From sequence record OK254197.1: a DNA stretch of 64,000 bases; one strand, given 5' to 3'. The position numbers and the translations under genes are program-made. Source of the stretch: Escherichia phage PNJ1902. Each line of letters starts with the position of its first letter. Position 1 is the stretch's first letter. This document shows, piece after piece, positions 5,533 to 38,635 of the stretch. Below the pieces are notes generated by a model that worked only from the letters and a program-made list of their open reading frames with translations, was not told the DNA's origin and did no database searches.

Positions 5533-7407
5533 TTATTTAGCTCGAATATCCTGATGTTTCACCCTGCCCATCACCTCGTGCTGTTTGCCGGGGTTAAATG
5601 GACGAGCACCCGGATTTCCAAGATACCCACAAACTCGACGAGTTACTTCAAGAGTTTCGGGGTCATGATTACCACAGATAGGGCACTTAAATCCATCTTC
5701 GGATGCTATTGTTTCACCTAAGAATCCACATTTACCACAAGAATCCACTGGGGTATTAATACCGAAATAATGAACCTTACTAGCAGCATAATTAATAACC
5801 CATTCCAGTGCATCTGGGAATCGTTTCATATCCGGTAGTTCTACATAGGAAATGCACCCACCAGAAGCAATAGGAGTAAAGTTAGATTCATAATCAAATT
5901 TCACATTGGGAGCAACTTTACGTTCTACATCAAGGTGGTGCGAGTTAGTGTAGTATCCTTTGGACAGAATATCTTCATGCTCTGGGAAATATTCACGGTC
6001 TAGACGACAAAAACGGTCACATAGGGATTCTGATGGTGTAGCATACAGGCTATAACCTAATTTAGTTTCTTCCTTCTTCTGATCGACTCTATCCCGCATG
6101 TATTGCAATACACGCTGAACAAACTTGATGCAGGTCTCGGACATTGTGTCTACCTCTTTGCCAAACATGAACTGTAGCATTTCATGGCAACCAATATACC
6201 CTAGAGATACAGAAGCACGGTTATAGAAATGATCGAATACATATTCATCAGGCCCCAAGCGTAACCCAAAGGCTCCTGACATATAGAGGATAGGTGCAGC
6301 TTTAGCTTGAATGTATTTTAAGCGATCAACTCTCCATTCCAACGCTTTTAATGCTGTATCCACACGTAGCTCAAGCAAATCAAAGAATAGATCAATATTT
6401 CCTTCAGCTTCGATAGCAATTCTAGGCAAGTTTACAGAAACAACACCTAAGTTATTACGACCGGCAGTTTCACCATCTTCTGTAGCAGCTAGGAATGAAC
6501 GGCAGCCCATAGAAACTTTGTAGTCTCCAGTAACCTCTACAACCTTGTCATAGCTGATATAATCTGGATACATACGTTCAGCAGTACATTTCATAGCTAA
6601 CTTCTTGATGTCATAATTAACATCTCCTGGTTTCATATTTACTCCATCACGAAGTACAAATACCAGTTTCGGGAAGATAGCTGTACGTTTATTGATACCT
6701 AAACCATCCATGCGTACTTTCAGTATTGCTTTCTGTACTAGACGTGCTTCCCAAGAAGTTCCTAGACCAAAACCAAAGGTAATAAATGGACTCTGACCAT
6801 TAGAGTTGAACATGGTATTGATTTCATATTCTAAACCCTGACAAGCGTCATAGACTTCTTTTTCAGTCATCTCCGTAGCCATTACGGATGCTTTGGCTTC
6901 ATCCTTAGTCCAACGTTTTGCAAACGCATGATTTTTATCATAGGATTTACGTACATAAGGGGCTAATACTTCATCAAGGCGATCTACAGAAGTACCACCA
7001 TACTGATGGGAGCTAACCTGAGTGATAATCTGAGCAGTAATAGCCGCCGCAGTAGTGATAGAGTTTGGAGTGCTAATTTCAGCATTACCAACCTTCATAC
7101 CATTCTTCAACATATCTTCCAGAGCTACCAGACAACAGTTAGTCATACCTAATGCAGCATAATCAGCATCATGGAAATGAATATCCCCAATCATATGAGC
7201 ATTTCGAATCTGAATTGGCATTTCTTCTAGAATCAGATACTTACTCAATTCACCTGCAAGCATATCCCTTTGTGTAGGGAAACGTTCTGAGGGTTTATTA
7301 GCATTATTAAACAGCAGCTCTTCATCTGCTGACCCTTCGATAATCTCTTTGCAGTTTCTAATTAACGCCTGCATTTCTTTATACTTTAATTCTTCATTGC
7401 GATTCAT
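5533..7407 (-). CDS. nrdD: Anaerobic ribonucleoside-triphosphate reductase (class III RNR)
   Basis: 624 aa; C-terminal glycyl-radical motif RVCGYLG and Zn-ribbon CGKCGF...CPICGN; ATP-cone-like N-terminus. Confidence 0.85.
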   Translation of the reverse strand: MNRNEELKYKEMQALIRNCKEIIEGSADEELLFNNANKPSERFPTQRDMLAGELSKYLILEEMPIQIRNAHMIGDIHFHDADYAALGMTNCCLVALEDMLKNGMKVGNAEISTPNSITTAAAITAQIITQVSSHQYGGTSVDRLDEVLAPYVRKSYDKNHAFAKRWTKDEAKASVMATEMTEKEVYDACQGLEYEINTMFNSNGQSPFITFGFGLGTSWEARLVQKAILKVRMDGLGINKRTAIFPKLVFVLRDGVNMKPGDVNYDIKKLAMKCTAERMYPDYISYDKVVEVTGDYKVSMGCRSFLAATEDGETAGRNNLGVVSVNLPRIAIEAEGNIDLFFDLLELRVDTALKALEWRVDRLKYIQAKAAPILYMSGAFGLRLGPDEYVFDHFYNRASVSLGYIGCHEMLQFMFGKEVDTMSETCIKFVQRVLQYMRDRVDQKKEETKLGYSLYATPSESLCDRFCRLDREYFPEHEDILSKGYYTNSHHLDVERKVAPNVKFDYESNFTPIASGGCISYVELPDMKRFPDALEWVINYAASKVHYFGINTPVDSCGKCGFLGETIASEDGFKCPICGNHDPETLEVTRRVCGYLGNPGARPFNPGKQHEVMGRVKHQDIRAK

Positions 7408-19526: not shown

Positions 19527-19534
19527 AAATTTAC

Positions 19535-19563
19535 TTGCTTAAATACTTAAATTTCTGTATAAT
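19535..19563 (+). promoter_or_regulatory. sigma70-type early promoter (TTGCTT-17-TATAAT)
   Basis: Read from sequence. Confidence 0.55.
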
Positions 19564-19594
19564 ACTTCCATAAACTAATGAGAGGAAGCGAAAT

Positions 19595-19765
19595 ATGAAA
19601 TCAGTTGTAATTATTGGTGTTAACACTCGCGGTATTCGTACTACGAAAACTGTTAAAACATCTAACGTGGCTGAAATTACTACTAACCCTAAAAAGTTTG
19701 ATTTCGCCAAAGTCTCGGCAGTTATGACAGAACAATCTTTTAACCAAGCGTTAGGAATGAAATAA
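19595..19765 (+). CDS. Hypothetical 56-aa protein (below ORF-track size cutoff)
   Basis: ATG 19595 after GAGGAAG RBS, directly downstream of promoter. Confidence 0.4.
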   Translation: MKSVVIIGVNTRGIRTTKTVKTSNVAEITTNPKKFDFAKVSAVMTEQSFNQALGMK

Positions 19766-20208
19766 TGGAAGAGAATATTTTAGATGTTTTGCGTAGAGCT
19801 TTGCAGGATTCTAAGTTTAATGGTTCTGATAAAGAAGTCGCTAAAAGCTACCAGACCATAATCGGGGATCTTCAGCGTATTGATAAAGATTTCATCACTT
19901 CTGAACAATTTGTGTCTTATCTCAAAGCTCAACTAAAAAGCATTAACCAGATGAAAGCTAAACTTCATGGTCAAGATCTTGATAGTTATAGCTTGCAGTC
20001 TGCTCAGTATGAGTACATTCTAAATAAATGGTTGCAGGAGTATCTGCCTCCTCAGTTATCTGATACTGAGATTCGTAAATACTTTGCAGAATTAGTTAAG
20101 CTAAACCCTGGAATTACAAAGGGTATGCTGATGAAAGCGATTAAGGAAGAATTTCCTGGGCGTTATGATGGCGGTACTGCTGCTCAGATTGCTGGCGAAT
20201 TTAATTAA
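19765..20208 (+). CDS. Hypothetical protein (possibly GatB/YqeY-domain-like)
   Basis: ORF track; weak resemblance only. Confidence 0.3.
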   Translation: MEENILDVLRRALQDSKFNGSDKEVAKSYQTIIGDLQRIDKDFITSEQFVSYLKAQLKSINQMKAKLHGQDLDSYSLQSAQYEYILNKWLQEYLPPQLSDTEIRKYFAELVKLNPGITKGMLMKAIKEEFPGRYDGGTAAQIAGEFN

Positions 20209-20216
20209 AAATTTAT

Positions 20217-20245
20217 TTGCTAAATGCCTTTAAATTCTGTATAAT
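20217..20245 (+). promoter_or_regulatory. sigma70-type early promoter driving the non-coding/tRNA region
   Basis: TTGCTA-17-TATAAT with no ORF downstream for about 900 bp. Confidence 0.55.
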
Positions 20246-20468
20246 ATATTCATAAATTAGGGAACAGCGAGCCGATTACGCTGAGTGCAGAATCCCAACC
20301 GGAGCGCATTGAATAGAGTCGGTGGGTTAGTTGTAAAACTAGTACACAGGGGGCGGCAATCCCGGTTAGTGGCTAGAACGTGTAAAATGAGGCGTCTGAA
20401 ACCTCTCCCCTAAACTCTTCTCTAATTTATAAATAGTGGGGTGTGGAAATCACTTATGTAGTAACACT

Positions 20469-20540
20469 GCCGTCCTAGTATAATTGGTATTATCAAGCCG
20501 TAACTGGTGGAAGATGTAGGTTCGAATCCTACGGTCGGTA
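20469..20540 (+). tRNA. Possible tRNA or tRNA-like element (anticodon not resolved)
   Basis: T-arm gtagg-ttcgaat-cctac with acceptor-like pairing; anticodon arm could not be folded by hand. Confidence 0.25.
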
Positions 20541-21042
20541 AGAACTGGATAACTGGTGCTTTTAATGTAAAAGCTTCCGAGGTTAGTTGCGCACTGCCTA
20601 AACCACGCGGTAGTTGGTTCCAGACTAGCCAACCAGTCTGCTGAATAGTTTTATTACGATTTAACTATGTCCAGACTAAAGAAGAACTTTAGAAGGTATT
20701 CTAGGATAGTGAAGTTCTTTCTCCATATCGGAGTAGTTTTTCAAGCTATCCACAAAGTGGGAAATGCTGACATGAGAGATGTCACTAATGGTGCACAATA
20801 GCACAGGTAATTCGCGATAATTCCTGTTGAGTAGCAGCAAAAGGCGGGAAGTCATGACCCCAAGCCTAACCGAGTCCTCAATATACCGCAGGACATAACC
20901 ACTAAGTCACCCTGACTTAAACTGGAAAATAATAGACGTTACCGTATTTTGTCTTGAAATACTTAATGAGTGAGACTTATGACTCTCCCGGTATCGTCTG
21001 TATTTTTAAGAGTTTTTACGAGAGTTCTTAAAAATACTTAAA

Positions 21043-21117
21043 CGGGGTGTAGTCTAAGGGAGAGGCAGGAGTCTTCTAAATTCCTTTATGCAGGTTCGAA
21101 TCCTGTCACCTCGGCCA
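21043..21117 (+). tRNA. tRNA-Arg (anticodon UCU)
   Basis: Cloverleaf folded by hand: 7-bp acceptor, T-arm gcagg-ttcgaat-cctgt, anticodon loop cttctaa, encoded CCA. Confidence 0.65.
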
Positions 21118-21151
21118 ATTTTATTAACTGTAACTAAAACAAAGGAAATAT

Positions 21152-22099
21152 ATGTTTGCTACTAAAAACACTAAAGAACTGACTTATGAGCAAAAATTAA
21201 TGCGTAATATCAAACGTTGGGGTATTGGGGCTGCAGTTGGTTTGGTAGGTTTAGTTCTGGCTCTTAACTCTTACACTGTTGTTCAAGACGGTACTGTTAA
21301 AACCCAGACTTTCCTGGGTAAAGTTGACCCTAGCCCAGTATTACCCGGCTTTCATATTGTAAATCCTTTTGCTTCTTTCGATACTTTTAGTACTAAAGAT
21401 ATTGCTCTAAAATTAGATAAACTTCAGGTTCCTAGTCAGGATAAGTTTAAATCCACTGTTGACCTGACTGTTATGTTGCAGTTTGATGGTTCTAAGGCAC
21501 CGATTAACCGTATTAATGCAGGTACTCAGGATCAAGCATTAGACAAATATGTAACTGAAAAATTACTGTCTACTATTCGTGAGTTTGGTAAGTCTGTACC
21601 TAAAGCACAAGATTTATTTGATGCTAAAATTCAGGCTCAATTGCAAACCGCAATTCAACAGGAAGTTGAAGAGTATGCACGCCCATATGGTTACACAGTT
21701 AAGCAGGTGTTTCTTCAGGATATTACTTTGCCACCGGTAATCATGGAACAGGTACAGAATACCAAAGTTCGTGAAGAGCAAGTTAACGCTGCGAAAGCTG
21801 AACTTGCCCGCGTTGAACAGGAAGCACAGCAAAAAGTTAAACAAGCAGAAGCAGATCGTGAAGCTCGCAACAACCAAGCTATTGCTAATGAACGTGACGC
21901 AGATGCTAAACTGTACGCAGCTAAGAAAGAAGCTGAAGCTAACGCCGCACTGCAACGTACCATTACTCCTGAGATGATTCGTTGGAAACAACTGGAAGTT
22001 GAAATGATTCGTGCTCAGAAGTATCAAGGTGGTGTACCTCAGACTGTAGTTGGCACTGGCTATGATGGTCAAATGATTATGGATATGCGTAACAAGTAA
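21152..22099 (+). CDS. SPFH/band-7 (prohibitin/HflC-like) membrane protein
   Basis: N-terminal TM helix, SPFH-like core and C-terminal charged coiled coil (EAQQKVKQAEADREARN...). Confidence 0.5.
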   Translation: MFATKNTKELTYEQKLMRNIKRWGIGAAVGLVGLVLALNSYTVVQDGTVKTQTFLGKVDPSPVLPGFHIVNPFASFDTFSTKDIALKLDKLQVPSQDKFKSTVDLTVMLQFDGSKAPINRINAGTQDQALDKYVTEKLLSTIREFGKSVPKAQDLFDAKIQAQLQTAIQQEVEEYARPYGYTVKQVFLQDITLPPVIMEQVQNTKVREEQVNAAKAELARVEQEAQQKVKQAEADREARNNQAIANERDADAKLYAAKKEAEANAALQRTITPEMIRWKQLEVEMIRAQKYQGGVPQTVVGTGYDGQMIMDMRNK

Positions 22100-22124
22100 T
22101 AGTTACACGTAATCTTCGAACTAA

Positions 22125-22155
22125 GCCCGCGTTTTCTCCGAGAGCGCGGGCTTTT
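22125..22155 (+). terminator. Rho-independent terminator
   Basis: agcccgcg...cgcgggct + TTTT. Confidence 0.55.
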
Positions 22156-24749: not shown

Positions 24750-24827
24750 GGTTCTCAAGCTCATATGGTATGAGCACCCGGCTCATAACCGGAAGGTACG
24801 TAGGTTCGAATCCTCGGGGAGCCACCA
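24750..24827 (+). tRNA. tRNA with CAU anticodon (Met or Ile2)
   Basis: Acceptor ggttctc/gggagcc, D-arm gctc...gagc, anticodon loop ctcataa; T-stem partly mismatched. Confidence 0.5.
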
Positions 24828-29182: not shown

Positions 29183-29350
29183 TATTAGCTCGACCTAGGA
29201 CTGGCTGCCAAAAAGCACGATCCCTTCTACTTGGGAGAAGTTCTAGATTAGTCCACTAGATTCAGCGGCAACTGAATAGTGTATCGGGTTTGCGAGATGA
29301 CGCAGTTCCTTCCGCTCGAAGCGAAGGTGCTGTAGTTACGCCGAGCTAAT
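29183..29350 (+). ncRNA. Candidate structured RNA closed by 9-bp terminal helix
   Basis: attagctcg...cgagctaat complementarity; multiple internal hairpins; no ORF. Confidence 0.25.
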
Positions 29351-29373
29351 AGCCTTAGTAAACTAAAGATTTT

Positions 29374-29448
29374 GGGCGGTTAGTTTATCTGGGAAAATAC
29401 CTGACTTGCACTCAGGAGTGAGGAGTTCGACTCTCCTACTGTCCACCA
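29374..29448 (+). tRNA. tRNA-Ala (anticodon UGC)
   Basis: Anticodon stem cctga/tcagg, loop cttgcac, T-arm aggag-ttcgact-ctcct, CCA. Confidence 0.65.
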
Positions 29449-29466
29449 AATTAAAGGGTATGTAGT

Positions 29467-29967
29467 ATGAAGGTAGCTAAAAATGGGAGAAAAGATAACT
29501 TAAATGAGTTAGAAATATTCCTCCACAATAACAAACTAGACGTAACCGCTAGTAATTACATGCAAATAGCTCTATGGTATAATGGGTATATAGTTAGGAA
29601 GGCCAATCCTAGTAAGGATAAGAAGTCAAATACATACCAAAAGAGACTAGAGCATAGCTATCAAAGATCCCTAAGAGTAGTACAGCTTTATTGTTATATC
29701 AATAATATAAATAATAAGCTGGGATATATTTATATAATATCTAATCCAGCTTTTCCAGGCTGGTTTAAAGTAGGAGCAGCCAAAGATGCTGAGACTAGAT
29801 TAAATACCTATCAAACATACTCCCCTTTTCGGGACTATGTATTAGAGTATTATAAACTAGTAGATAATTATGAACTCAAAGAAAAAGAAATCCTAAGTTC
29901 TTTTTCATCTAGAAATAATGAGTGGGTTCATGCTCCACTTGAAGAAATAATTGCTTGCGTGGCGTAA
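29467..29967 (+). CDS. GIY-YIG / T5orf172-type nuclease-domain protein (homing-endonuclease-like)
   Basis: GYIYIISNPAFPGWFKVGAAKD...R...Y..Y...E motif; 3' end overlaps tRNA-Leu by about 15 nt. Confidence 0.5.
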   Translation: MKVAKNGRKDNLNELEIFLHNNKLDVTASNYMQIALWYNGYIVRKANPSKDKKSNTYQKRLEHSYQRSLRVVQLYCYINNINNKLGYIYIISNPAFPGWFKVGAAKDAETRLNTYQTYSPFRDYVLEYYKLVDNYELKEKEILSSFSSRNNEWVHAPLEEIIACVA

Positions 29968-30035
29968 TTGGTAGACGCGCGATCCTTAGGAGTTCGTGTT
30001 AATTCGTGTGGGTTCGAGTCCCTCCGCAAGCACCA
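29953..30035 (+). tRNA. tRNA-Leu (anticodon UAG), class II
   Basis: Acceptor gcttgcg/cgcaagc, D-loop aattggtagac, anticodon loop cttagga, long variable arm, CCA. Confidence 0.65.
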
Positions 30036-30039
30036 AATT

Positions 30040-30112
30040 TGATGGTCAGAGTAAATTAAACCTACTATCTCGGTTGAGCTGTTTTAATGGGTTCGAATCC
30101 CAGCGAGGCGTA
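30040..30112 (+). tRNA. Possible degenerate tRNA or pseudo-tRNA
   Basis: T-arm-like tggg-ttcgaat-ccca but no complementary acceptor strand found. Confidence 0.2.
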
Positions 30113-30147
30113 ACTGCCTGGTGTGATAGGGGCATCATCTTATTATT

Positions 30148-30238
30148 GGAAGAGCAAATCGAATTGGCGACGAAAACCGCTTGGAAAGTGGCTGACTGGT
30201 AAAACGGCTTGAGAGTTCAAATCTCTCCTCTTCCGCCA
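30148..30238 (+). tRNA. tRNA-Ser (anticodon GGA), class II
   Basis: Acceptor ggaagag/ctcttcc, anticodon loop ttggaaa, T-arm gagag-ttcaaat-ctctc, CCA. Confidence 0.65.
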
Positions 30239-30250
30239 AACAATTTATAT

Positions 30251-30345
30251 GGTAGGTCAATCCAACGGCTGGCGCTGGACTCCGACTTGAAATCGGTTGA
30301 TCGTAGTGATACGGTGTAAGGGTTCGATCCCCTTACCTACCTCCA
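30251..30345 (+). tRNA. tRNA-Ser (anticodon UGA), class II
   Basis: Acceptor ggtaggt/acctacc, anticodon loop cttgaaa, T-arm aaggg-ttcgatc-ccctt, CCA. Confidence 0.6.
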
Positions 30346-30350
30346 AATCT

Positions 30351-30482
30351 TGAAGTATGCCGGAATTGGTAGACGGGGCTGCCTAAAAGGTTTATAGAGA
30401 ACATCCACTCTCTACAACATACCTCATAAAGCGGCTGAGATAAATGGTCTATCTCGTGAAGGTTCAAGTCCTTCTGCTTCTT
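30351..30482 (+). ncRNA. Long tRNA-like element with Leu-type D-arm and canonical T-arm, about 55-nt insertion
   Basis: D-loop aattggtagac, T-arm gaagg-ttcaagt-ccttc, acceptor-like pairing of ends. Confidence 0.3.
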
Positions 30483-30711
30483 GATACATCTATGGCTCAA
30501 AGTGTAACGGTGCTATTTGATGCTCTTAGTAAGACTTCCCCGACATGCGTTCGGGAGTAAGCTGCTAAGGCTAGGGTAGAAGAGTTTCGGAGAGCCGCCA
30601 CAATTGAAAATTCGTACTCGTCTTGAGCTGCGTGCAATAGGAGATAACTTGATTAGTATTCTAGAACATGCTAATTGAGGAAGGTTTCGCTAACCCTGCG
30701 AGTTTTCAATT

Positions 30712-30788
30712 GTGGCTATATCATAATTGGTTAATGATCCTGATTGTGAATCAGGCCTATGTGGATTCGAATTCCACTAGCCACCCCA
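30712..30788 (+). tRNA. tRNA-His (anticodon GUG)
   Basis: Acceptor gtggcta/tagccac, anticodon stem cctga/tcagg, loop ttgtgaa, T-arm gtgga-ttcgaat-tccac, CCA. Confidence 0.7.
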
Positions 30789-30813
30789 AATTAACTTAAA
30801 TAGGAAATAAAAT

Positions 30814-31008
30814 ATGGCTGATTTCTGCAAACAATGCTCCATTGATATGTGGGGCAGAGATACTGGTGATCTTTCTGGTTTGATTACAGAAGCTGAAGTT
30901 AAAGAAGGCTACGGTGCTGTTGTGATTTGCGAGGGATGCGGAGTTATTCGAGTAGATCATGAAGGCAAACGTTTGGAAGAATCTGAGCCAACAACAATTT
31001 TTCCGTAG
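30814..31008 (+). CDS. Small Cys-rich (zinc-binding-like) protein
   Basis: ORF track; CKQC...CEGC. Confidence 0.45.
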   Translation: MADFCKQCSIDMWGRDTGDLSGLITEAEVKEGYGAVVICEGCGVIRVDHEGKRLEESEPTTIFP

Positions 31009-31020
31009 AATAAAAATTAT

Positions 31021-31096
31021 TGGGATGTAGATCAATTGGCAGATCGTCGGCCTCTGACTCCGAAGGTTCCACGTTCGATCCGTGGCATCCCAGCCA
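31021..31096 (+). tRNA. tRNA-Gln (anticodon CUG)
   Basis: Acceptor tgggatg/catccca, loop ctctgac, T-arm ccacg-ttcgatc-cgtgg, CCA. Confidence 0.6.
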
Positions 31097-31102
31097 AATA
31101 AT

Positions 31103-31178
31103 TGGAGAGTAGTGTAACGGTTAGCACAACGGCCTTTGACTCCGTTAATGGTAGGTTCGATTCCTCCTTCTCCAGCCA
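31103..31178 (+). tRNA. tRNA-Gln (anticodon UUG)
   Basis: Acceptor tggagag/ttctcca, D-arm gtgt...caca, loop ctttgac, CCA. Confidence 0.55.
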
Positions 31179-31186
31179 AACAATAA

Positions 31187-31262
31187 GCGGTTAAGCACAC
31201 GGGTTGTGCCGCAGGCCTTCCAAGCCTCGCTGAGTAGGGTTCGATTCCCTCTAGCCGCTCCA
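31187..31262 (+). tRNA. tRNA-Gly (anticodon UCC)
   Basis: Acceptor gcggtta/tagccgc, loop cttccaa, T-arm taggg-ttcgatt-ccctc, CCA. Confidence 0.55.
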
Positions 31263-31278
31263 ACTTTAAGGAAACGTT

Positions 31279-31533
31279 ATGCACGTTTTTGAATTTCGTA
31301 ATAAAAGTACCGATAAACGAGTTATTGTTATTGGGGAAACATACCGAGCATACGAACAAACTGACGGCTCTGTTATCCTGAATGATGAGAAAGGAGGTTT
31401 TAGCTTTTATCCAGAAGAACCTTATGAAGAGTTTCGAAAACAATTTAACCTAGACTGGAGAAAGCATTTAAACACTGTTGCTTCATCTGTAATACTGCCA
31501 ACTACCAGTACTGAGTCCTCTAATGGCCGATAA
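31279..31533 (+). CDS. Hypothetical protein
   Basis: ORF track. Confidence 0.5.
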   Translation: MHVFEFRNKSTDKRVIVIGETYRAYEQTDGSVILNDEKGGFSFYPEEPYEEFRKQFNLDWRKHLNTVASSVILPTTSTESSNGR

Positions 31534-31687
31534 CCTAAAAGTAAAGATCGATAAACAAAAGAAACGTGTAGAAGTAGAGATTGGTGAAGAACGTGTAGCC
31601 TTCACCTTTGAATTTCTACAACAAATGGCAATGACAGTTATGACTGACAAGTCTCCTATTATTGAAAAAGAAATCCCGTTGGAATAA
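31523..31687 (+). CDS. Hypothetical 54-aa protein
   Basis: ATG overlapping previous stop; below ORF-track cutoff. Confidence 0.3.
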   Translation: MADNLKVKIDKQKKRVEVEIGEERVAFTFEFLQQMAMTVMTDKSPIIEKEIPLE

Positions 31688-31695
31688 CGGGTTCT

Positions 31696-31782
31696 GCTGG
31701 GTTGGCAGAATGGTTGAATGCACCTGATTTGTAATCAGGAGGAGTAATCCCGTTGCAGGTTCGAATCCTGTGCCCAGCACCA
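31696..31782 (+). tRNA. tRNA-Thr-like (anticodon UGU) with long hairpinned variable arm
   Basis: Acceptor gctgggt/gcccagc, anticodon stem cctga/tcagg, loop tttgtaa, T-arm gcagg-ttcgaat-cctgt, CCA. Confidence 0.55.
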
Positions 31783-31797
31783 ATTTAAGGATTAGTA

Positions 31798-31964
31798 TGT
31801 TTAAACTCCTAGTAGTTATCTGGTATAGCCAATCAAACAGAGCTAATACCTCTCACGTTATAGACTTTAATACTAAAAATGAAGCTGAAGAAGCATATGC
31901 TAATTTAATACAACGTAATAAAGAATCTCGTAGTATAGTTTATGAAGTGACTAAACTTTATTAA
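31798..31964 (+). CDS. Hypothetical 55-aa protein
   Basis: ATG 31798 after AAGGA; track ORF 31770 start would overlap tRNA. Confidence 0.35.
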
Positions 31965-31973
31965 AAATTCATT

Positions 31974-32001
31974 TGCCTTCTCTCTTATTTCTTGTTATAA
32001 T
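31974..32001 (+). promoter_or_regulatory. sigma70-type promoter (TTGCCT-16-TATAAT)
   Basis: Read from sequence. Confidence 0.5.
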
Positions 32002-32031
32002 ATTTATATAAATTAATGAGAGGGAAACCAA

Positions 32032-32325
32032 ATGAAACGTTATCTTTCTGTTATGTTCCAAACTGGTGGTCAACGCTATACTTATGAATTTCCTAGCTCT
32101 TGGAAGATCAAAGAAGGTGATCAAGTAGTAGTGTTAACACCGCGCGAGGGTTTCAAGGTAGTAACGGTTAAGCAAGTATTTCCAAAAGATCGTGAACCAG
32201 CTAAAGGCATTCGCTATAAGATGATTCATGGTGTAGTTCGTCAAGTACCACGAGCGGAAGTCGAAATCAAAGTAGATAAAGATGGTAAACTTAAATATAC
32301 CTCTTGCTTAGACGAGTTGCTATAA
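32032..32325 (+). CDS. Hypothetical protein
   Basis: ORF track; GAGGGAAACCAAATG. Confidence 0.5.
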   Translation: MKRYLSVMFQTGGQRYTYEFPSSWKIKEGDQVVVLTPREGFKVVTVKQVFPKDREPAKGIRYKMIHGVVRQVPRAEVEIKVDKDGKLKYTSCLDELL

Positions 32326-32531
32326 TGAGAATTACTTTCACAGAAAAGATTATGGGTAATGGTGTTATGATCATTACCGCATGGGATGGTAATCAGTGGT
32401 GTAGTGTTTCAGGTATTAAGCCTGAAGAACAAACACTAGAAAATATCTCAAAGATTAAGCGAAGAATGGCAGAACGTGCACGACTTCCAGGTGCGCCTAG
32501 AAATGGTAAACGTTCTGCAATTAAATATTAA
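32325..32531 (+). CDS. Hypothetical protein
   Basis: ATG 32325 overlapping previous stop. Confidence 0.4.
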   Translation: MRITFTEKIMGNGVMIITAWDGNQWCSVSGIKPEEQTLENISKIKRRMAERARLPGAPRNGKRSAIKY

Positions 32532-32532
32532 T

Positions 32533-32609
32533 GCTTCGGTAGCTTAGCGATCTAAAGCACTCGGCTGATAACCGAGAGATCGGGGGTTTAAATCCCTCCC
32601 GGAGTACCA
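32533..32609 (+). tRNA. tRNA-Ile (anticodon GAU)
   Basis: D-arm gctt...aagc, anticodon stem ctcgg/ccgag, loop ctgataa, T-arm ggggg-tttaaat-ccctc, CCA. Confidence 0.65.
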
Positions 32610-32705
32610 AATTTAGGAATTAAGACTATGCGTCCAGGAAAGTTTAAAAAAGCTAATTGGTCTAAAGAGTATAAAGAATACTTACTTAGTCTAGTAAAAC
32701 ATAAC

Positions 32706-32781
32706 AGTTAGTTGGCAGAGTGGTTATGCACCTCCTTCATACGGAGCGACTACAGTGGTTCAAATCCACTACTAACTACCA
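32706..32781 (+). tRNA. tRNA with CAU anticodon (Met/fMet/Ile2)
   Basis: Acceptor agttagt/actaact, loop ttcatac, T-arm agtgg-ttcaaat-ccact, CCA. Confidence 0.6.
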
Positions 32782-32818
32782 TTAAAATAGCTAGAGATAG
32801 CTAAATTTAGGAGCAGCT

Positions 32819-33013
32819 ATGTTAACAATTAAAATAATGTCAGCCAAGAATGGTGAACATATCCATACGGGCAAAAGCGTAAGCTTTAATCCTAGAAATA
32901 AGAGATTGGCTATAGTTGGAGTAGATCAAGCCATCTTTTTAAAAGAAGATGAAGTAGCATACGTCATGAACCAAACTGGTAAGACAGTTTCCGTATACTA
33001 TGGAAAAGTATAA
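32819..33013 (+). CDS. Hypothetical small protein
   Basis: ORF track; AGGAGCAGCTATG. Confidence 0.45.
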   Translation: MLTIKIMSAKNGEHIHTGKSVSFNPRNKRLAIVGVDQAIFLKEDEVAYVMNQTGKTVSVYYGKV

Positions 33014-33055
33014 AGAATAAAGAGCTGAGCCAAATTCTAACATCGGGGAGATCTA

Positions 33056-33424
33056 ATGAAAGCATATCAAAATCTTAAATCTGGCGTAATTAACCTTGTT
33101 CATGAAAATCAGATTATTCAGCTATACTCCGACAATGGTGAACTTAAACAGAAAGTTCTAGTTGAAGATCTAGAAGGTATCACACCACAATTCGATCCCG
33201 AAGCCTTCCGTGAAGTCAAAGTGGAAGTCGCCCCTCAAATCGAAGGTGGTCAGCACCTAAATGTCAATGTGTTAAGCCGTGATCAGCTTTTGGATGCGCA
33301 GAAACATCCTGAAAAATATCCTCAGTTGACCATCCGTGTTTCCGGGTACGCTGTACGTTTTAATGCACTGACTCGTGAACAGCAGAACGACGTTATTAGT
33401 CGTACATTTACTCAGGCGATGTAA
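33056..33424 (+). CDS. grcA: Autonomous glycyl-radical cofactor (GrcA/YfiD-like)
   Basis: C-terminal half [11 protein letters not shown]...[37 protein letters not shown] closely matches the E. coli YfiD/GrcA sequence as I recall it, including the RVSGY glycyl-radical motif. Confidence 0.8.
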
Positions 33425-33505
33425 TGGGGTTTGGATACGATTTCTACCAGCTACGCAAGGTAGTCGAGCAAACTCCATTTATCTCCCAAGTTTTAGGAGA
33501 AATGT

Positions 33506-33811
33506 GTGGATCGAGCATTAAGACGCCATCACCGGCAACGTGTGAAGAACAACCGCAAGAAGTATTGGACAGTCTTTCCACATGAAGAAAGCCCTAAGCG
33601 GTTAGGTATTGTCACTACTACTCCTTGCATCTGTTCTTGTTGGATGTGTGGGAACCCTCGCAAATACTATAAGAATAGTAAAGCAGGCATGAAAACCTCG
33701 GAGATCCGGAAAATGGAAGCGATGATTGCTGACATCACCTATACTGGTGGTATTTCAAATGATGAATTTGATGGCTTCGTGGCGTTCGAAGATGAACGCC
33801 CCGATCTGTAA
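33506..33811 (+). CDS. Hypothetical basic Cys-containing protein
   Basis: ORF track (GTG start after AGGAGAAA). Confidence 0.4.
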   Translation: MDRALRRHHRQRVKNNRKKYWTVFPHEESPKRLGIVTTTPCICSCWMCGNPRKYYKNSKAGMKTSEIRKMEAMIADITYTGGISNDEFDGFVAFEDERPDL

Positions 33812-33825
33812 TTAATAACAAACCC

Positions 33826-33866
33826 CAGCTATTGAATAAGTAGTCTGGGGTTTTTCTGTATAAAGG
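33826..33866 (+). terminator. Rho-independent terminator
   Basis: aaaccccag...ctggggttttt. Confidence 0.6.
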
Positions 33867-33932
33867 TACATAATATATGTATAATAAAATTCATCCACAT
33901 TAGGTTAATTTAAAAGACTTAATGGAGGTAAT

Positions 33933-34280
33933 ATGAGCCGTACTTACCGTAAACAATCTGGTGATCAGTGGTGGAAGTCTAAAGAACAATTCTCTCAAGA
34001 ATATTCTTTCCTCAAAGAAAATGGCTACTGGATTCGTGTTATTTATGCCAAATCTTGGGATGACATCAAGAAAGAAATGAAGGAAGCAACCATTCGTAAT
34101 GAGAAAAAGGATGGTTATAACTGGAATTCTATTAGTAAGAATGTTAAGTGGCATTCTAATAAAATGGTTCGTCAAGGGAATCGTCAAGAACTCCACCGCG
34201 TGATGAAAGATCCAGAAAATTATGACTATAATCGCGATCATGACATGCGTAAGCGTGGATTATGGTGGTGCTATGACTAA
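33933..34280 (+). CDS. Hypothetical protein
   Basis: ORF track; GGAGG RBS. Confidence 0.5.
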   Translation: MSRTYRKQSGDQWWKSKEQFSQEYSFLKENGYWIRVIYAKSWDDIKKEMKEATIRNEKKDGYNWNSISKNVKWHSNKMVRQGNRQELHRVMKDPENYDYNRDHDMRKRGLWWCYD

Positions 34281-34297
34281 ATTCTGAAATAATTCAT

Positions 34298-34326
34298 TTG
34301 CTAAACCTCTCTTTTCTTGCTATAAT
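34298..34326 (+). promoter_or_regulatory. sigma70-type early promoter (TTGCTA-17-TATAAT)
   Basis: Read from sequence. Confidence 0.55.
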
Positions 34327-34356
34327 ATGTTTATAAATTGATGAGAGAGGTTTGAA

Positions 34357-34638
34357 ATGAAAACTCGTCTAGACTGTGCTGTTCATGTTCTTGAACATGA
34401 TGTTGCAGGAACCTGTATGTCTTACCACGAAGCAGGTCGTTTAATTAAAGAACGTGTGGCAGATGTGTGCGGATTGAAGATTACTGCTGAGGAAGCTGAT
34501 GATCTTTTAGGCCAAGCACTGGAGAAAACCGAAATGTTTCTCTGCGATTCTTGTTCTTGGTGGTGTGAAGCTCACGAACGTTCTTTCAACGATTATGATG
34601 TATGTCGTGACTGTAGTGGGGAGGATGAAGATGAATAA
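34357..34638 (+). CDS. Small Cys-rich protein (CDSCSWWC...CRDCSG)
   Basis: ORF track. Confidence 0.5.
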   Translation: MKTRLDCAVHVLEHDVAGTCMSYHEAGRLIKERVADVCGLKITAEEADDLLGQALEKTEMFLCDSCSWWCEAHERSFNDYDVCRDCSGEDEDE

Positions 34639-34930
34639 GTTTATTATTGCACTGGTGATCTCCGCAGTTAGTTTAGGTTCTCTAGCGTCTACCAAAGTTT
34701 CTATGAAAAATGGCAGTGTTAAAGTCCAACAGAACGGCATTATTACCGAGTATGGTAAAGTTCGTGATGTTAAGGAACGTAATGGTAAAGTAGAAATCTA
34801 TACTAATAAAAACTTCTCTACTCCAGCCGTTACTATTAGCAAACGCGGTGAAATAACCACTCAACGTACTAATAGCTCCAGTTCTTTTACTTGTCGTTAT
34901 GATTGCGACTTTGAAGGTGAAGATGAATAA
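34631..34930 (+). CDS. Secreted/periplasmic small protein with signal peptide
   Basis: MNKFIIALVISAVSLGSLAS N-terminus; ATG 34631 overlapping previous stop. Confidence 0.45.
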   Translation: MNKFIIALVISAVSLGSLASTKVSMKNGSVKVQQNGIITEYGKVRDVKERNGKVEIYTNKNFSTPAVTISKRGEITTQRTNSSSSFTCRYDCDFEGEDE

Positions 34931-35318
34931 TTTAGACCCTAGAATTAAATTTGCAATTACAGAAATCCAAGATCAAATTGATGAGGATTTCACTGTTTGG
35001 TCAAGGTCTGGTAATGGAGAATATTGCCAGCTTTATAGTATGAAAATGGGTATCTCAATTGAGCTTAATATCAACTCTGAAGGTAGAGTAGAAGCCCGAC
35101 CCATGTTCAGTGTTCCAGGCTTCTCTGGATTTGTTGCAGGTATAAAATTGTGTCTACCAAATAACCATCTTCATCGAGTTATTTGTCAGCTAGAGACTAT
35201 TAAGCATTTCTTACCAGAAGGTAACATTAATGACTACTACCATGAAGTTGTAGCAGCTCATATGATGAAAGAAACTAAACGTAGGAGAGAAGAACGTGAA
35301 AAGACTAAACATCAATAG
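34923..35318 (+). CDS. Hypothetical protein
   Basis: In-frame part of track ORF 34899..35318. Confidence 0.45.
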   Translation: MNNLDPRIKFAITEIQDQIDEDFTVWSRSGNGEYCQLYSMKMGISIELNINSEGRVEARPMFSVPGFSGFVAGIKLCLPNNHLHRVICQLETIKHFLPEGNINDYYHEVVAAHMMKETKRRREEREKTKHQ

Positions 35319-35592
35319 CACGGTGCAGATTCCAGCAACTAAGGATGTTTTAACATTCCTACGTAGTGAGAATACCCAGTTTTGGCATGACTATATTCAG
35401 GAAAATAAAAATAATCCAGATGTAGTTGCCTTTGCCAAAAAACGTATCGAAGAATATAAAGATCCAGAGATTAAAGATGGGATGATTACTATGCAATTGT
35501 GGGTAGCCATGAATACGTTTGGACCCACTATGAGTCTAGGAGTTACTCCACTGTTTACTAATATTCTAATTAATGAAAAGGATCTGAAATGA
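35296..35592 (+). CDS. Hypothetical protein
   Basis: ORF track. Confidence 0.4.
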   Translation: MKRLNINSTVQIPATKDVLTFLRSENTQFWHDYIQENKNNPDVVAFAKKRIEEYKDPEIKDGMITMQLWVAMNTFGPTMSLGVTPLFTNILINEKDLK

Positions 35593-35873
35593 TTATCTCT
35601 CCATTTGCTCTTTGGTTCGTCATTGGATCTATAGTAGCTATTTACAGCTTGGTTGATGATCTGTATATTTCTAAGAATAAAGATGTAATATTATACGTTA
35701 TACATAAAACTCGACCGTTAGATCTGTCTCCTCTTGATGATAAAACATTACTCAGATGTGCTAGATCTATGATATTTATTGTGGATATTCTTCTAGGCCC
35801 AACATCTGTGTTTTTCTTTTATAGAAAAACTCGTAATATGAAAAAATTTAAAGCTGAAATGCAGAATACCTAA
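35589..35873 (+). CDS. Hypothetical membrane protein
   Basis: ORF track; hydrophobic N-terminus. Confidence 0.45.
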   Translation: MIISPFALWFVIGSIVAIYSLVDDLYISKNKDVILYVIHKTRPLDLSPLDDKTLLRCARSMIFIVDILLGPTSVFFFYRKTRNMKKFKAEMQNT

Positions 35874-35947
35874 AGAACTCGCGTAGGACCGAGTTGCGTC
35901 ACCTGCAACTGTTACGGATAAGGGAGTCGTGCCCCTTAGTGCGGTAA

Positions 35948-36328
35948 GTGGTGAGGTGGCTGCTAGCCCTAACTGGAGATAATATGACTATATTACTAAT
36001 TCTTGTTACAACCTGGTTTTTAATCAGTGCTGGATATGCGATAGCTATTATTAGACATTTGGATGAATATTCTGCTGAATGGTTTGTTAAGTATCTACGT
36101 ATTGATGATCAAGAACAGAAGTTTAAAGATGAAAAGCAGAAAAAAGCAGTAAATAATATGACAGCCAAAGAATACTTGTTCTACATGCGTATTGTAGGGT
36201 TCTTTGGACTATTAGTTGCTGGCCCAATTGGTTCCACCATTGCTCCATATAAGGAAACAGTTGCTGACATCAAATTGTGGAGAAATGCAGGGGTACTGCA
36301 CAAAGCTAGAAAAACTAATATTACATAA
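35948..36328 (+). CDS. Hypothetical membrane protein
   Basis: ORF track; two hydrophobic segments. Confidence 0.45.
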   Translation: MVRWLLALTGDNMTILLILVTTWFLISAGYAIAIIRHLDEYSAEWFVKYLRIDDQEQKFKDEKQKKAVNNMTAKEYLFYMRIVGFFGLLVAGPIGSTIAPYKETVADIKLWRNAGVLHKARKTNIT

Positions 36329-36372
36329 GATTGACACTAAGTCAACTTACTAGCAAAAGCAAATAATGACAA

Positions 36373-36412
36373 AGCCCAGCCTGCACTTTTGCGACTGGGC
36401 TATTTTTATAAT
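36373..36412 (+). terminator. Rho-independent terminator
   Basis: cccagcc...ctggg + TTTTT. Confidence 0.5.
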
Positions 36413-36422
36413 AAAATTTTAG

Positions 36423-36451
36423 TTGCTTAGATGCCCAAACTTTTGTATAAT
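36423..36451 (+). promoter_or_regulatory. sigma70-type early promoter (TTGCTT-17-TATAAT)
   Basis: Read from sequence. Confidence 0.55.
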
Positions 36452-36482
36452 ATGTTTATAGATTGAGGCAAGAGGATTAAAT

Positions 36483-37181: not shown

Positions 37182-37587
37182 GTGGTATATCCTGGGAGCA
37201 GGTCTAGCGATAGGCATCGGGTTCGGTGCTTATCACTTAGTAGATAGAGTGGAGACTTTAGCGGGAGATCTTGCAGTAGCTACTAAAAAGATCTCTTCTC
37301 TAGAGACTTCCCTTAATAAGGTGAAAGCTGAAAGCGAACTTCGTGAGACTAGAATGAATCAGTATTTCACAATGAATAATATTTCGCAAGCAGATCTAGA
37401 CAAAAAGATTAAGCAGCTAGATAAAGCTCTTAGTCGTCAAGATGTTATCGCTGCAAAGCCTGGATTGGTAACATTAATTGCTAAAAAGCAGAATAAAGAG
37501 TTCGAGGAAAGATTAGCATGTTTAACTGGAAACTTGGAGTACTGCTCGCAGCCACAATCACAATCACAGGCTGTGCAGAAGAAATAA
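37138..37587 (+). CDS. Membrane-anchored coiled-coil protein
   Basis: ORF track; N-terminal TM then coiled coil. Confidence 0.4.
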   Translation: MDLIQKLLSGIWHGKWYILGAGLAIGIGFGAYHLVDRVETLAGDLAVATKKISSLETSLNKVKAESELRETRMNQYFTMNNISQADLDKKIKQLDKALSRQDVIAAKPGLVTLIAKKQNKEFEERLACLTGNLEYCSQPQSQSQAVQKK

Positions 37588-38623: not shown

Positions 38624-38635
38624 TCAAGGATCGCT

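What the first reader, a model, noticed from the sequence alone, without database searches (positions are those of the whole stretch)
20270..21040. About 770-bp promoter-driven non-coding stretch upstream of tRNA-Arg
A strong promoter at 20217-20245 is followed by about 770 bp without credible ORFs before the first clear tRNA at 21043. The stretch contains multiple hairpins (for example cagact...agtctg around 20600) and one T-arm-like motif. It could encode novel small RNAs or processed leader RNAs.
Basis: seen in the sequence. Interest (0 to 1): 0.45.

Follow-up and report, generated by a model that had tools for sequence, protein, structure and literature searches.

The report
Known T5 "RNAX" structured noncoding RNA
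The 770-bp gap is this phage's copy of "RNAX", a long non-coding RNA already annotated in phage T5; relatives show it is a conserved, intricately folded RNA with a built-in tRNA look-alike, and its function is still unknown.

Summary
A strong sigma-70 promoter (20217-20245) is followed by about 790 nt with no conserved ORF, ending at tRNA-Arg(UCU) at 21043.

It is not new as an object. GenBank records of T5 and DT57C annotate the homologous stretch as misc_RNA "rnaX: stable RNA with unknown functions", behind "promoter P 16-17".

Comparison with about 90 related loci shows a modular, strongly structured RNA on the + strand:
- A 13-bp hairpin starts at the inferred +1 and encloses an optional 5' domain that T5 lacks.
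- A tRNA-like module lies at 20469-20540. Its acceptor, D and T arms covary. It has no canonical anticodon arm and no encoded CCA, whereas all 21 real tRNA genes here encode CCA.
- A variable middle domain follows.
- The 3' domain (20756-21037) is conserved across Tequintavirus, Epseptimavirus and Sugarlandvirus, where the whole RNA reaches 1.0-1.3 kb. It shows abundant compensatory changes.
- One apical loop keeps a self-complementary hexamer although its sequence changes.

No Rfam family other than tRNA matches. The most likely reading is a stable ncRNA released by tRNA-processing enzymes and acting in trans. Its function is unknown, and self-association through the palindromic loops is only a hypothesis.

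The parts
20217..20245 (+). Sigma-70 promoter (-35 TTGCTA, 17-nt spacer, -10 TATAAT); homologue of T5 'promoter P 16-17'
   Evidence: The same T5 early-promoter consensus, with the TTCATAAATT start region, recurs upstream.
20252..20264 (+). 5' strand of terminal stem P1 (AUAAAUUAGGGAA), beginning at the inferred transcription start (A of TTCATAAATT)
   Evidence: 13 bp with 20418-20430. T5 keeps the same stem with an 8-nt loop. The start site is inferred, not mapped. T5 annotates the rnaX start at the equivalent of 20259.
20265..20417 (+). Optional 5' domain ('module A'). Core hairpin CAGCG-AGCCGAUUA-CGCUG (20265-20283), variable hairpin (20284-20310), core UGAAUAGAGUCGGUGGGUU (20310-20328), hairpin GAGG/CCUC (20389-20405).
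   Evidence: The cores are conserved while the hairpins between them are swapped among at least 5 versions. GAGG/CCUC changes to GUGG/CCAC in Klebsiella phages. The domain is absent in T5/DT57C and replaced by an HNH gene in some relatives. Its folding z-score of -0.39 is not significant.
20418..20430 (+). 3' strand of stem P1 (UUCUCUAAUUUAU)
20443..20453 (+). Small linker hairpin GUG-GAAAU-CAC upstream of the tRNA-like module
   Evidence: GUG/CAC changes to GUC/GAC in Epseptimavirus-type sequences. The model is ambiguous in L005.
20469..20540 (+). tRNA-like module. Acceptor (U5.U68 mismatch), D arm and T arm are present. The 'anticodon arm' is reduced to a 3-bp stem with the 6-nt loop GUAACU. 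There is no encoded CCA.
   Evidence: Rfam tRNA scores 35.5 bits, with the anticodon arm skipped in the alignment. Covariation: 7 of 19 pairs change on both sides, and 89% of cells pair versus 26-50% in slid controls. The arm is replaced by unrelated hairpins in Klebsiella phages, L121 and phiR2-01. It is the only tRNA-model hit in the window without CCA.
20558..20574 (+). Hairpin GCUUUUA-AUG-UAAAAGC after the tRNA-like module
   Evidence: the stem is kept with other sequences (GCUUAU/AUAAGC, GCUUC/GAAGC, GGUUC/GAACC).
20575..20755 (+).
   Evidence: Folding z-score -2.40. Replaced by unrelated sequence in many Epseptimavirus and Klebsiella phages.
20756..20917 (+). Conserved 3' domain D1. Closing stem GUGG (20757-60) / CCAC (20899-902) around four hairpins: H1 20768-84; H2 20803-27 with apical palindrome UCGCGA 20812-17; H3 20843-66 with loop palindrome GUCAUGAC 20850-57; H4 20874-94. 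Hairpin H5 follows at 20905-17.
   Evidence: 32 pairs, 98% paired versus 34-47% slid, 9 pairs with double changes. A covariance model finds it once in the window, and also in Epseptimavirus, Enterobacter, Yersinia and Klebsiella phages. On that alignment 22 of 32 pairs have double changes. Palindromes.
20934..20999 (+). Three-way junction (AGACG-UACCG ... CGGUA-CGUCU enclosing two hairpins separated by CUUAAU)
   Evidence: relatives have different sequences that fold into the same architecture.
21000..21037 (+). 17-bp A/U-rich terminal hairpin ending 5 nt before the tRNA-Arg 5' end. Its 5' strand can alternatively pair with 20927-20932.
   Evidence: It is conserved as far as Klebsiella phages. 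It stays at the end of the RNA even where an ORF separates it from tRNA-Arg.
21043..21117 (+). tRNA-Arg(UCU) with encoded CCA; marks the 3' boundary of the RNA (presumed RNase P site at 21042/21043)
21152..22099 (+). Co-transcribed SPFH/Band 7 protein gene (T5.080 homologue)
22123..22153 (+). First intrinsic terminator downstream of the promoter (annotated in T5 as an efficient bidirectional terminator)

Best explanation
The stretch is the orthologue of T5 rnaX.

Transcription. It is a roughly 790-nt non-coding, highly structured RNA made from a strong early sigma-70 promoter. It forms the first part of a polycistronic transcript RNAX - tRNA-Arg - SPFH gene.

Layout.
- A terminal stem starts at the inferred +1 and encloses an optional 5' domain.
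- Next comes a tRNA-shaped module that cannot decode, because it lacks an anticodon loop and a CCA end.
- A replaceable middle domain follows.
- The universally conserved 3' domain consists of a multi-helix junction, a three-way junction and a long terminal hairpin.

Inferred mechanism.
- RNase P cuts 5' of tRNA-Arg, and probably 5' of the internal tRNA-like module. This detaches the RNA from the downstream mRNA, much as tRNA-like elements punctuate other long transcripts.
- The hairpins at both ends protect the product, which would explain why it was annotated as a 'stable RNA'.
- The conserved 3' domain is then the working part. It probably acts in trans as a structural RNA (scaffold or decoy) early in infection.

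Status of the steps. Shown here: homology, non-coding nature, strand, structure and covariation. Inferred: start site, processing, stability and a trans-acting role. Unknown: the biological function.
For: Identity with RNAX. The region matches T5 at 91-98% and DT57C at 96% over 20413-21157, in the same position between the T5.081 homologue and tRNA-Arg, where those records annotate rnaX and promoter P 16-17.

Non-coding. No ORF is conserved and no remnant of the mobile genes seen in relatives is present.

Structure under selection on the + strand.
- tRNA-like module: 7 pairs with double changes.
- Domain D1: 9 pairs with double changes among close relatives, and 22 of 32 across genera. About 94-98% of cells pair, versus 24-47% in slid controls.
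- Many G.U pairs are present, which would be C.A mismatches on the other strand.
- Folding z-score is -2.84 on the + strand and -1.69 on the - strand.

The tRNA-like module is not a tRNA gene.
- Its anticodon arm is non-canonical and is replaced by three unrelated hairpins in relatives.
- It is the only tRNA-model hit here without encoded CCA; the other 21 of 22 have it.
- Gene callers disagree on it: Ser(ACT), SeC(TCA), Pro, 'OTHER' or nothing.

Transcription unit. There is no + strand terminator before 22123.

End protection. The 13-bp stem starts at the conserved T5 start region, and the 17-bp hairpin ends 5 nt before tRNA-Arg.

Conserved synteny and growth. The RNA is 0.7 kb in T5, 0.8 kb here, about 1.0 kb in phiR2-01 and about 1.3 kb in Klebsiella phages.
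Against: - No transcript data could be found. 'Stable RNA' rests only on the depositors' annotation.
- The RNA is mosaic. The 5' domain is absent in T5 and replaced by an HNH gene elsewhere, the middle domain is swapped, and the tRNA-like module is replaced by a plain hairpin in L008/L026/L027. Only the 3' domain is universal, so 'one RNA' may really be several.
- The 5' domain's folding energy is not unusual (z = -0.39).
- The covariation alignments contain closely related sequences, and alignment A3 was fitted to the model, so its counts lean towards the structure.
- RNase P cleavage, the start site and any trans activity are untested.
Confidence: 0.75

Rival explanations
1. It is a cis-acting leader. 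On this view the structured RNA exists to control expression or processing of what follows, whether tRNA-Arg, the SPFH gene, or the ORFs placed behind it in other phages. One possible route is the alternative pairing of 21001-21006 with either 20927-20932 or 21031-21036.
For: It is co-transcribed with tRNA-Arg and the SPFH gene. The X:Y pairing covaries: AAAAUA/UAUUUU becomes AAGAUA/UAUCUU. The competing terminal hairpin acquires a C.A mismatch in Epseptimavirus and is restored in Klebsiella phages. In relatives an ORF with its Shine-Dalgarno sequence starts right after the hairpin.
Against: The downstream element differs between phages (tRNA, 170-aa ORF, T5orf172-like ORF, 109-aa ORF) while the RNA is conserved. 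About 800-1300 nt of covarying structure is far more than known leaders need. A tRNA between RNAX and the mRNA would separate them after processing.
Confidence: 0.12
2. It is transcribed junk. On this view the region is a graveyard of decayed tRNA genes and scars of homing-endonuclease traffic in the plastic T5 tRNA region, with no function of its own.
For: The region is a hot spot for mobile genes and module swapping. The tRNA-like element looks like a damaged tRNA, with a U.U mismatch, no CCA and a poor anticodon arm. Known T5 deletions show that much of the tRNA region is dispensable in the laboratory.
Against: Compensatory changes maintain helices across genera. Loop sequences such as GGAGUCAUGACC and AGUCACCYUGACU are invariant from T5 to Klebsiella phages. 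The cited viable T5 deletions (29191-32442 and 30661-38625) do not reach rnaX at 40848-41566.
Confidence: 0.06
3. The tRNA-like element is a real, unusual decoding tRNA (for example a suppressor, Sec-like or Ser(ACU) tRNA), and the rest is its precursor.
For: It scores above the Rfam tRNA gathering threshold. ARAGORN calls Ser(ACT) in T5 and SeC(TCA) in L005. Several GenBank records annotate a tRNA there.
Against: The anticodon arm is a 3-4-bp stem with a 6-nt loop. In relatives it is replaced by hairpins with GCUA, UUAUA or GCGAA loops. There is no encoded CCA, unlike all 21 real tRNAs here. The anticodon calls disagree between near-identical sequences.
Confidence: 0.03
4. It encodes one or more small proteins.
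For: Six + strand ORFs of 23-45 aa exist. Several GenBank records annotate 'hypothetical proteins' over the homologous region.
Against: None has a Shine-Dalgarno sequence. All are interrupted by stops or frameshifts in close relatives, and indels are not in multiples of three.
Confidence: 0.02

Closest known systems
T5 rnaX / RNAX (misc_RNA in GenBank AY543070 and KM979354: 'stable RNA with unknown functions')
   Same: Same position (promoter P 16-17 to tRNA-Arg). 91-98% identity over 20413-21157. Same tRNA-like module, middle domain, 3' domain and terminal hairpin.
   Different: The window carries an extra roughly 150-nt 5' domain (20265-20417) inside the loop of the 5' hairpin, which T5 and DT57C lack. 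T5 has an 84-nt duplication/insertion after hairpin H5.
GOLLD and ROOL large ornate RNAs of phages and prophages
   Same: Large (over 500 nt), elaborately folded, protein-free by annotation, encoded in phages next to tRNA islands. [quoted passage not shown] Kissing loops hold their multimers together (PMC12286853). RNAX likewise has a conserved 3' domain, variable 5' parts, an embedded tRNA-like element and conserved self-complementary apical loops.
   Different: No Rfam large-RNA family, GOLLD and ROOL included, matches at E-value up to 5-10 in the window or in five relatives. Hosts are enterobacteria. Multimerisation is untested. RNAX modules are swapped much more freely.
tRNA-like processing signals in long transcripts (MALAT1-mascRNA; mitochondrial tRNA punctuation; T4 tRNA-cluster stable RNAs) - recalled from general knowledge
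   Same: A tRNA-shaped element without decoding capacity sits inside a long non-coding transcript, where RNase P could define ends. In phages with an HNH gene upstream, it would separate that mRNA from the downstream RNA.
   Different: Cleavage has not been shown here. In some relatives the tRNA-like module is replaced by a simple hairpin, so it is not indispensable.
Canonical tRNA (Rfam RF00005)
   Same: Acceptor, D and T arms, the GG of the D loop and the GGUUCGAAUCC T loop are present, all supported by covariation.
   Different: No 5-bp/7-nt anticodon arm, no CCA, a conserved U5.U68 mismatch, and G1.U72 or G1.A72.
Retroviral dimerisation initiation site (HIV-1 DIS kissing loop) - recalled from general knowledge
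   Same: A hairpin whose apical loop carries a 6-nt self-complementary sequence flanked by purines. The sequence varies between lineages but stays palindromic: UCGCGA, CGCGCG, CUCGAG, CCGCGG, GUGCGCAC.
   Different: This is only an analogy in sequence logic. One lineage (L029/L070) keeps only CGCG. No dimer has been observed.

Membership tests
T5 RNAX (annotated stable RNA) | Lies between the T5.081 homologue with promoter P 16-17 and tRNA-Arg(UCU) | tested here: met
   collinear with L001 1501-2387 and L002 1501-2304.
T5 RNAX (annotated stable RNA) | Sequence homology to the annotated rnaX | tested here: met
   91-98% identity to T5 and 96% to DT57C over 20413-21157. 441 phage records match in 'near' mode.
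T5 RNAX (annotated stable RNA) | Accumulates as a stable RNA in infected cells | not testable with these tools
   Only the depositors' note exists. No paper in the searchable library describes it.
tRNA (RF00005) | Scores above the Rfam gathering threshold | tested here: met
   35.5 bits versus 29.
tRNA (RF00005) | Anticodon arm of 5 bp with a 7-nt loop carrying a conserved anticodon | tested here: not met
   The arm is skipped in the model alignment. The best pairing is 3-4 bp with a 6-nt loop. Relatives have unrelated hairpins in its place.
tRNA (RF00005) | Encoded 3'-CCA, as in every tRNA gene of this genome | tested here: not met
   21 of 22 tRNA-model hits have CCA. This one is followed by AGA.
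tRNA (RF00005) | Called by a dedicated tRNA finder with a consistent identity | tested here: not met
   ARAGORN calls nothing in the window, Ser(ACT) in T5 and SeC(TCA) in L005.
GOLLD / ROOL | Match to the curated covariance model | tested here: not met
   No hit at E-value up to 10 in the window or up to 5 in L001, L006, L008, L029 and L055.
GOLLD / ROOL | Large ornate RNA in a phage, adjacent to tRNA genes | tested here: met
   0.7-1.3 kb, many covarying helices, at the edge of a 21-tRNA cluster.
GOLLD / ROOL | RNA-only multimer held by kissing loops | not testable with these tools
   Only suggestive: palindromic apical loops in H2 (variable but kept palindromic) and H3 (invariant GUCAUGAC).
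tmRNA | tRNA-like domain plus a tag reading frame, detected by ARAGORN or Rfam | tested here: not met
   No tmRNA call and no Rfam hit.
Protein-coding gene / decayed mobile gene | Conserved ORF, or translated similarity to the HNH or 170-aa ORFs that occupy this locus in relatives | tested here: not met
   tblastn finds nothing in 20200-21160. The ORFs are broken in relatives.

The most novel reading that the evidence does not exclude
RNAX may be an enterobacterial-phage counterpart of the GOLLD/ROOL class. On this reading it is a large RNA whose conserved 3' domain self-associates through two self-complementary apical loops. One is H2, whose hexamer changes between lineages but stays palindromic. 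The other is H3, with the invariant GUCAUGAC. The result would be dimers or closed multimers, with the embedded tRNA-like module serving as a processing or tethering element. This would extend RNA-only quaternary assemblies to the classic model phage T5, where genetics is easy.
Probability: 0.15. Interest if true: 0.8.

Novelty: already known. Interest (0 to 1): 0.45.

Why it matters
As an object it is already on record, as T5 RNAX. What the record lacks is any structure or function, and no Rfam family covers it.

The comparison made here shows a 0.7-1.3-kb RNA kept under structural selection in hundreds of T5-like phages of Escherichia, Salmonella, Klebsiella, Yersinia and other hosts. It carries a tRNA mimic that cannot decode and apical loops that stay self-complementary.

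That makes it a tractable candidate for a large functional phage RNA in a well-developed genetic system. Possible roles include processing punctuation, a decoy or scaffold for host factors, and RNA self-assembly.

It also flags systematic mis-annotation. The tRNA-like module is variously called tRNA-Ser, Sec, Pro or OTHER, and small 'hypothetical proteins' are called over the RNA in many GenBank records.

Tried and rejected
- **Rfam.** Permissive E-value searches on the window and on five relatives gave only tRNA hits. The weak SpF41, Hrs13 and miRNA matches are far below their thresholds.
- **Decayed genes.** tblastn with the HNH, 170-aa and 67-aa ORFs of relatives found nothing in the region. 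The only hits were two HNH genes elsewhere in the window.
- **Small ORFs.** None is conserved.
- **Module A core motif.** Scanning IMG/VR with it gave matches outside T5-like phages only as chance hits inside coding sequences. There is no second copy in the window.
- **Wider homologues.**
  - The metagenome scan with the H5 motif gave 80 loci, of which only 10 were real, all T5-like.
  - The IMG/VR scan with the H3-to-closing-stem motif gave 116 matching stretches and no new lineage.
- **Alternative H2 pairing.** The RNAalifold model (CAAUAG/CUGUUG) was set aside in favour of ACAGG/CCUGU, which fits the Klebsiella sequence and the L026 wobble change.
- **AAUU/AAUU stem in the H2 loop.** Rejected because AAUU becomes AACU in many isolates.
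- **T5 nick consensus (PuGCGC) as an explanation for the palindromes.** The window loop has CGCG, not GCGC.
- **Literature.** Searches for RNAX, T5 stable RNAs and T5 transcriptomes found no description.

Full report
**What is there.** The window is a T5-like phage, and the region is 99.8% identical to Salmonella phage vB_SenS_PHB06. At 20217-20245 lies the best sigma-70 match of the neighbourhood, TTGCTA-17-TATAAT, scoring 10/12. ARAGORN finds 21 tRNA genes, the first being tRNA-Arg(tct) at 21043-21117. Between promoter and tRNA the + strand holds only ORFs of 23-45 aa.

**It is already annotated.** The T5 record AY543070 and the DT57C record KM979354 annotate the homologous stretch as misc_RNA 'rnaX: RNAX, stable RNA with unknown functions'. 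It is preceded by 'promoter P 16-17' and abuts tRNA-Arg. The T5 record lists seven further 'stable' or 'tRNA-like' RNAs in the tRNA region. I found no paper in the searchable library that describes RNAX. The statement that it is a stable RNA therefore rests on the depositors' note alone.

**It is non-coding.**
- None of the six + strand ORFs has a Shine-Dalgarno sequence.
- All are interrupted in close relatives. For example, the 44-aa ORF at 20667 is frameshifted in T5, L003 and L004.
- The mobile genes that sit in this locus in relatives (an HNH endonuclease, a 170-aa ORF, a T5orf172-like ORF) have left no translated trace here.

**It is modular.** Comparison with about 90 loci from GenBank phages, IMG/VR and metagenomes shows blocks that come and go.
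- *Stem P1.* A 13-bp stem pairs 20252-20264 with 20418-20430. It starts at the conserved TTCATAAATT start region shared by T5 early promoters. T5 has the same stem with an 8-nt loop.
- *5' domain.* In the window the P1 loop is expanded to a roughly 150-nt domain. Two cores are conserved (GAACAGCGAGCCGATTACGCTG and TGAATAGAGTCGGTGGGTT) and are separated by hairpins that are swapped wholesale between lineages. This domain's folding energy is not unusual (z = -0.39).
- *tRNA-like module* at 20469-20540.
- *Variable middle domain* at 20575-20755 (the 20541-20755 segment folds with z = -2.40).
- *Conserved 3' domain* at 20756-21037 (z = -2.84 on the + strand and -1.69 on the - strand).

**The tRNA-like module is not a tRNA gene.**
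- Rfam's tRNA model scores 35.5 bits against a threshold of 29, but it skips the anticodon arm in the alignment.
- Across 21 distinct sequences the acceptor, D and T stems are maintained. Seven of 19 pairs change on both sides, and 89% of cells pair versus 26-50% when partners are slid.
- Examples of compensation:
  - C6-G67 becomes U-A in DT57C.
  - The U5.U68 mismatch is 'repaired' as A-U in T5 and as U-A in L034.
  - The whole D stem changes from GUAU/UUAU to AGUU/GACU in Klebsiella phages.
- The 'anticodon arm' is only a 3-4-bp stem with a 6-nt loop (GUAACU or UUCACU).
- Relatives carry something unrelated in its place:
  - a longer hairpin with a GCUA loop in Klebsiella phages;
  - a hairpin with a UUAUA loop in L121, with a compensatory GGAGA/UCUCC stem;
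  - the CUCCGG-GCGAA-CCGGGG hairpin in Yersinia phage phiR2-01.
- All 21 genuine tRNA genes of the window encode CCA. This element is followed by AGA.
- Gene finders and GenBank records call it Ser(ACT), SeC(TCA), Pro, 'OTHER' or nothing.
- In L008, L026 and L027 it is replaced by a plain hairpin.

**The 3' domain is the conserved core.** Domain D1 (20756-20917) is closed by GUGG/CCAC, which encloses hairpins H1-H4; H5 lies just 3' of the closing stem.
- On 17 distinct close relatives, 98% of cells pair versus 34-47% in slid controls. Nine pairs change on both sides, versus 0-1 in the controls.
- A covariance model built from that alignment finds exactly one copy in the window.
- It also finds the domain in divergent Epseptimavirus (53.7 bits), an Enterobacter phage (43.7 bits), phiR2-01 (27.1 bits, E = 1e-5) and Klebsiella Sugarlandvirus phages (16 bits, E about 0.01).
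- On that alignment 22 of 32 pairs have double changes. The caveat is that this alignment is fitted to the model and so leans towards the structure.
- Frequent G.U pairs fix the strand as +.
- Downstream, a three-way junction (20934-20999) is replaced in relatives by different sequences that fold into the same architecture.
- A 17-bp A/U-rich hairpin (21000-21037) closes the RNA 5 nt before tRNA-Arg. It remains the last element even where an ORF is inserted before the tRNA.

**Distribution and size.**
- About 510-530 phage records carry the region. Hosts named in the records include Salmonella, Escherichia, Klebsiella, Shigella, Citrobacter, Yersinia, Pectobacterium and Enterobacter.
- The RNA measures about 0.72 kb in T5, 0.79 kb here, about 1.0 kb in phiR2-01 and about 1.3 kb in Klebsiella phages. 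The landmarks keep the same order in all of them.
- Motif scans of IMG/VR and metagenomes found no homologue outside T5-like phages.
- No Rfam family other than tRNA matches, in the window or in five relatives.

**How it most likely works.**
- *Transcript.* No + strand terminator lies before 22123. The promoter should therefore produce RNAX - tRNA-Arg - SPFH mRNA.
- *Release (inference from established tRNA processing).* RNase P would cut at 21042/21043 and probably at 20468/20469, releasing RNAX or its parts.
- *Stability.* The stem at +1 and the terminal hairpin would shield the ends. This fits the 'stable RNA' label.
- *Punctuation.* Where an HNH gene replaces the 5' domain (L003-L005, L024), the tRNA-like module would separate that mRNA from the conserved 3' RNA.
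- *Role.* The conserved 3' domain is then the working part, acting in trans. What it does is unknown.

**A lead worth testing.**
- The apex of H2 always carries a self-complementary sequence even though the sequence differs between lineages:
  - UCGCGA here (20812-17);
  - CGCGCG in T5;
  - CUCGAG in L008/L027;
  - CCGCGG in Klebsiella phages;
  - GUGCGCAC in phiR2-01;
  - only CGCG in L029/L070.
- The H3 loop is the invariant palindrome GUCAUGAC (20850-57).
- Two homotypic loops per molecule could give dimers or closed multimers.
- GOLLD and ROOL RNAs are also large phage RNAs near tRNA islands. GOLLD has a conserved 3' region, a variable 5' region and sometimes a tRNA in its linker. Both assemble through kissing loops (PMC12286853).
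- This is a resemblance, not membership, because the Rfam models do not match.

**Rivals.**
- *Cis-acting leader.* This is possible. The segment 21001-21006 can pair with either 20927-32 or 21031-36, and the first pairing covaries. However, the downstream gene differs between phages while the RNA is conserved.
- *Junk.* This is contradicted by the covariation and the invariant loops. The cited viable T5 deletions do not include rnaX.
- *A real decoding tRNA, or small proteins.* Both are excluded by the tests above.

**Verdict.** The added value here is its domain map, the evidence for selection on structure, the reclassification of the 'tRNA' as a non-decoding mimic, and a testable self-association hypothesis.

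Noticed in passing
window 24750-24824, 30251-30341, 31186-31259, 30148-30234 (+): Further tRNA-clan Rfam hits that ARAGORN did not call. The first is a tRNA at 40.3 bits with CCA. The other three match the tRNA-Sec model at 38.3, 31.1 and 19.7 bits, below threshold. They probably correspond to T5's tRNA-Ile2 and the 'tRNA-like stable RNAs' RNA1, RNA2 and RNA3 listed in AY543070.
   Followed up: no
window 20927-20932 / 21001-21006 / 21031-21036: Three-segment alternative pairing. The 5' strand of the terminal hairpin can instead extend the closing stem of the three-way junction. The change from A to G and U to C covaries for the upstream pairing. It leaves a C.A mismatch in the hairpin of Epseptimavirus and is restored in Klebsiella phages.
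   Followed up: partly
L003 1017-1499, L004, L005 1020-1499, L024 (relatives); L005 2086-2595, L007, L008, L027, L029; L153 (phiR2-01) about 6600-7100 on the minus strand: Mobile genes occupy two fixed insertion points of the RNAX locus. An HNH_3 endonuclease gene sits in place of the 5' domain. Just before tRNA-Arg there is either a 170-aa ORF with no Pfam hit or an unannotated T5orf172-like ORF (judged from the sequence motif only).
   Followed up: partly
window 60076-60531 (-) and 54029-54340 (+): Two HNH-endonuclease-like coding regions elsewhere in the window, found by tblastn with the relatives' HNH protein (E = 2e-16 and 2e-7).
   Followed up: no
window 19765-20208 (+): The gene just upstream (T5.081 homologue, 147 aa) has a sub-threshold YqeY / GatB-tail-like match (25.4 bits versus a cutoff of 27). 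By general knowledge this domain family is linked to tRNA binding. It is adjacent to the tRNA-like RNA in Tequintavirus and Epseptimavirus but not in Klebsiella phages.
   Followed up: no
GenBank records of relatives (e.g. OR896840 GlastoCabaret, PV402694 SEL21, OR515477 Es2): Up to five small 'hypothetical protein' CDS, and tRNA-Ser, Sec, Pro or OTHER features, are annotated over the RNAX homologue. One record even has a 7.7-kb 'tRNA-Ser' feature. Given the non-conserved ORFs, these look like annotation artefacts.
   Followed up: partly
window 20850-20857 versus 20905-20917: The H3 loop (AGUCAUGAC) consists of the two arms of hairpin H5 (AGUCA-CCC-UGACU) without the CCC loop. The two elements could therefore exchange strands. 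T5 carries H5 twice.
   Followed up: no
window about 19532-19586 (+): A second copy of the same T5 early-promoter consensus, ending in TATAATACTT(T/C)CATAAATTA. It is homologous to T5 'promoter P-D/E 33', upstream of the T5.082 homologue. The coordinates are extrapolated from the T5 alignment offset.
   Followed up: no
L152 (metagenome contig OLXE01000031.1), tRNA-like region: A natural or assembly variant in which the D arm of the tRNA-like module is deleted (GCCGATCTAGTTTATCAAGCC...), while the rest of RNAX is intact.
   Followed up: no
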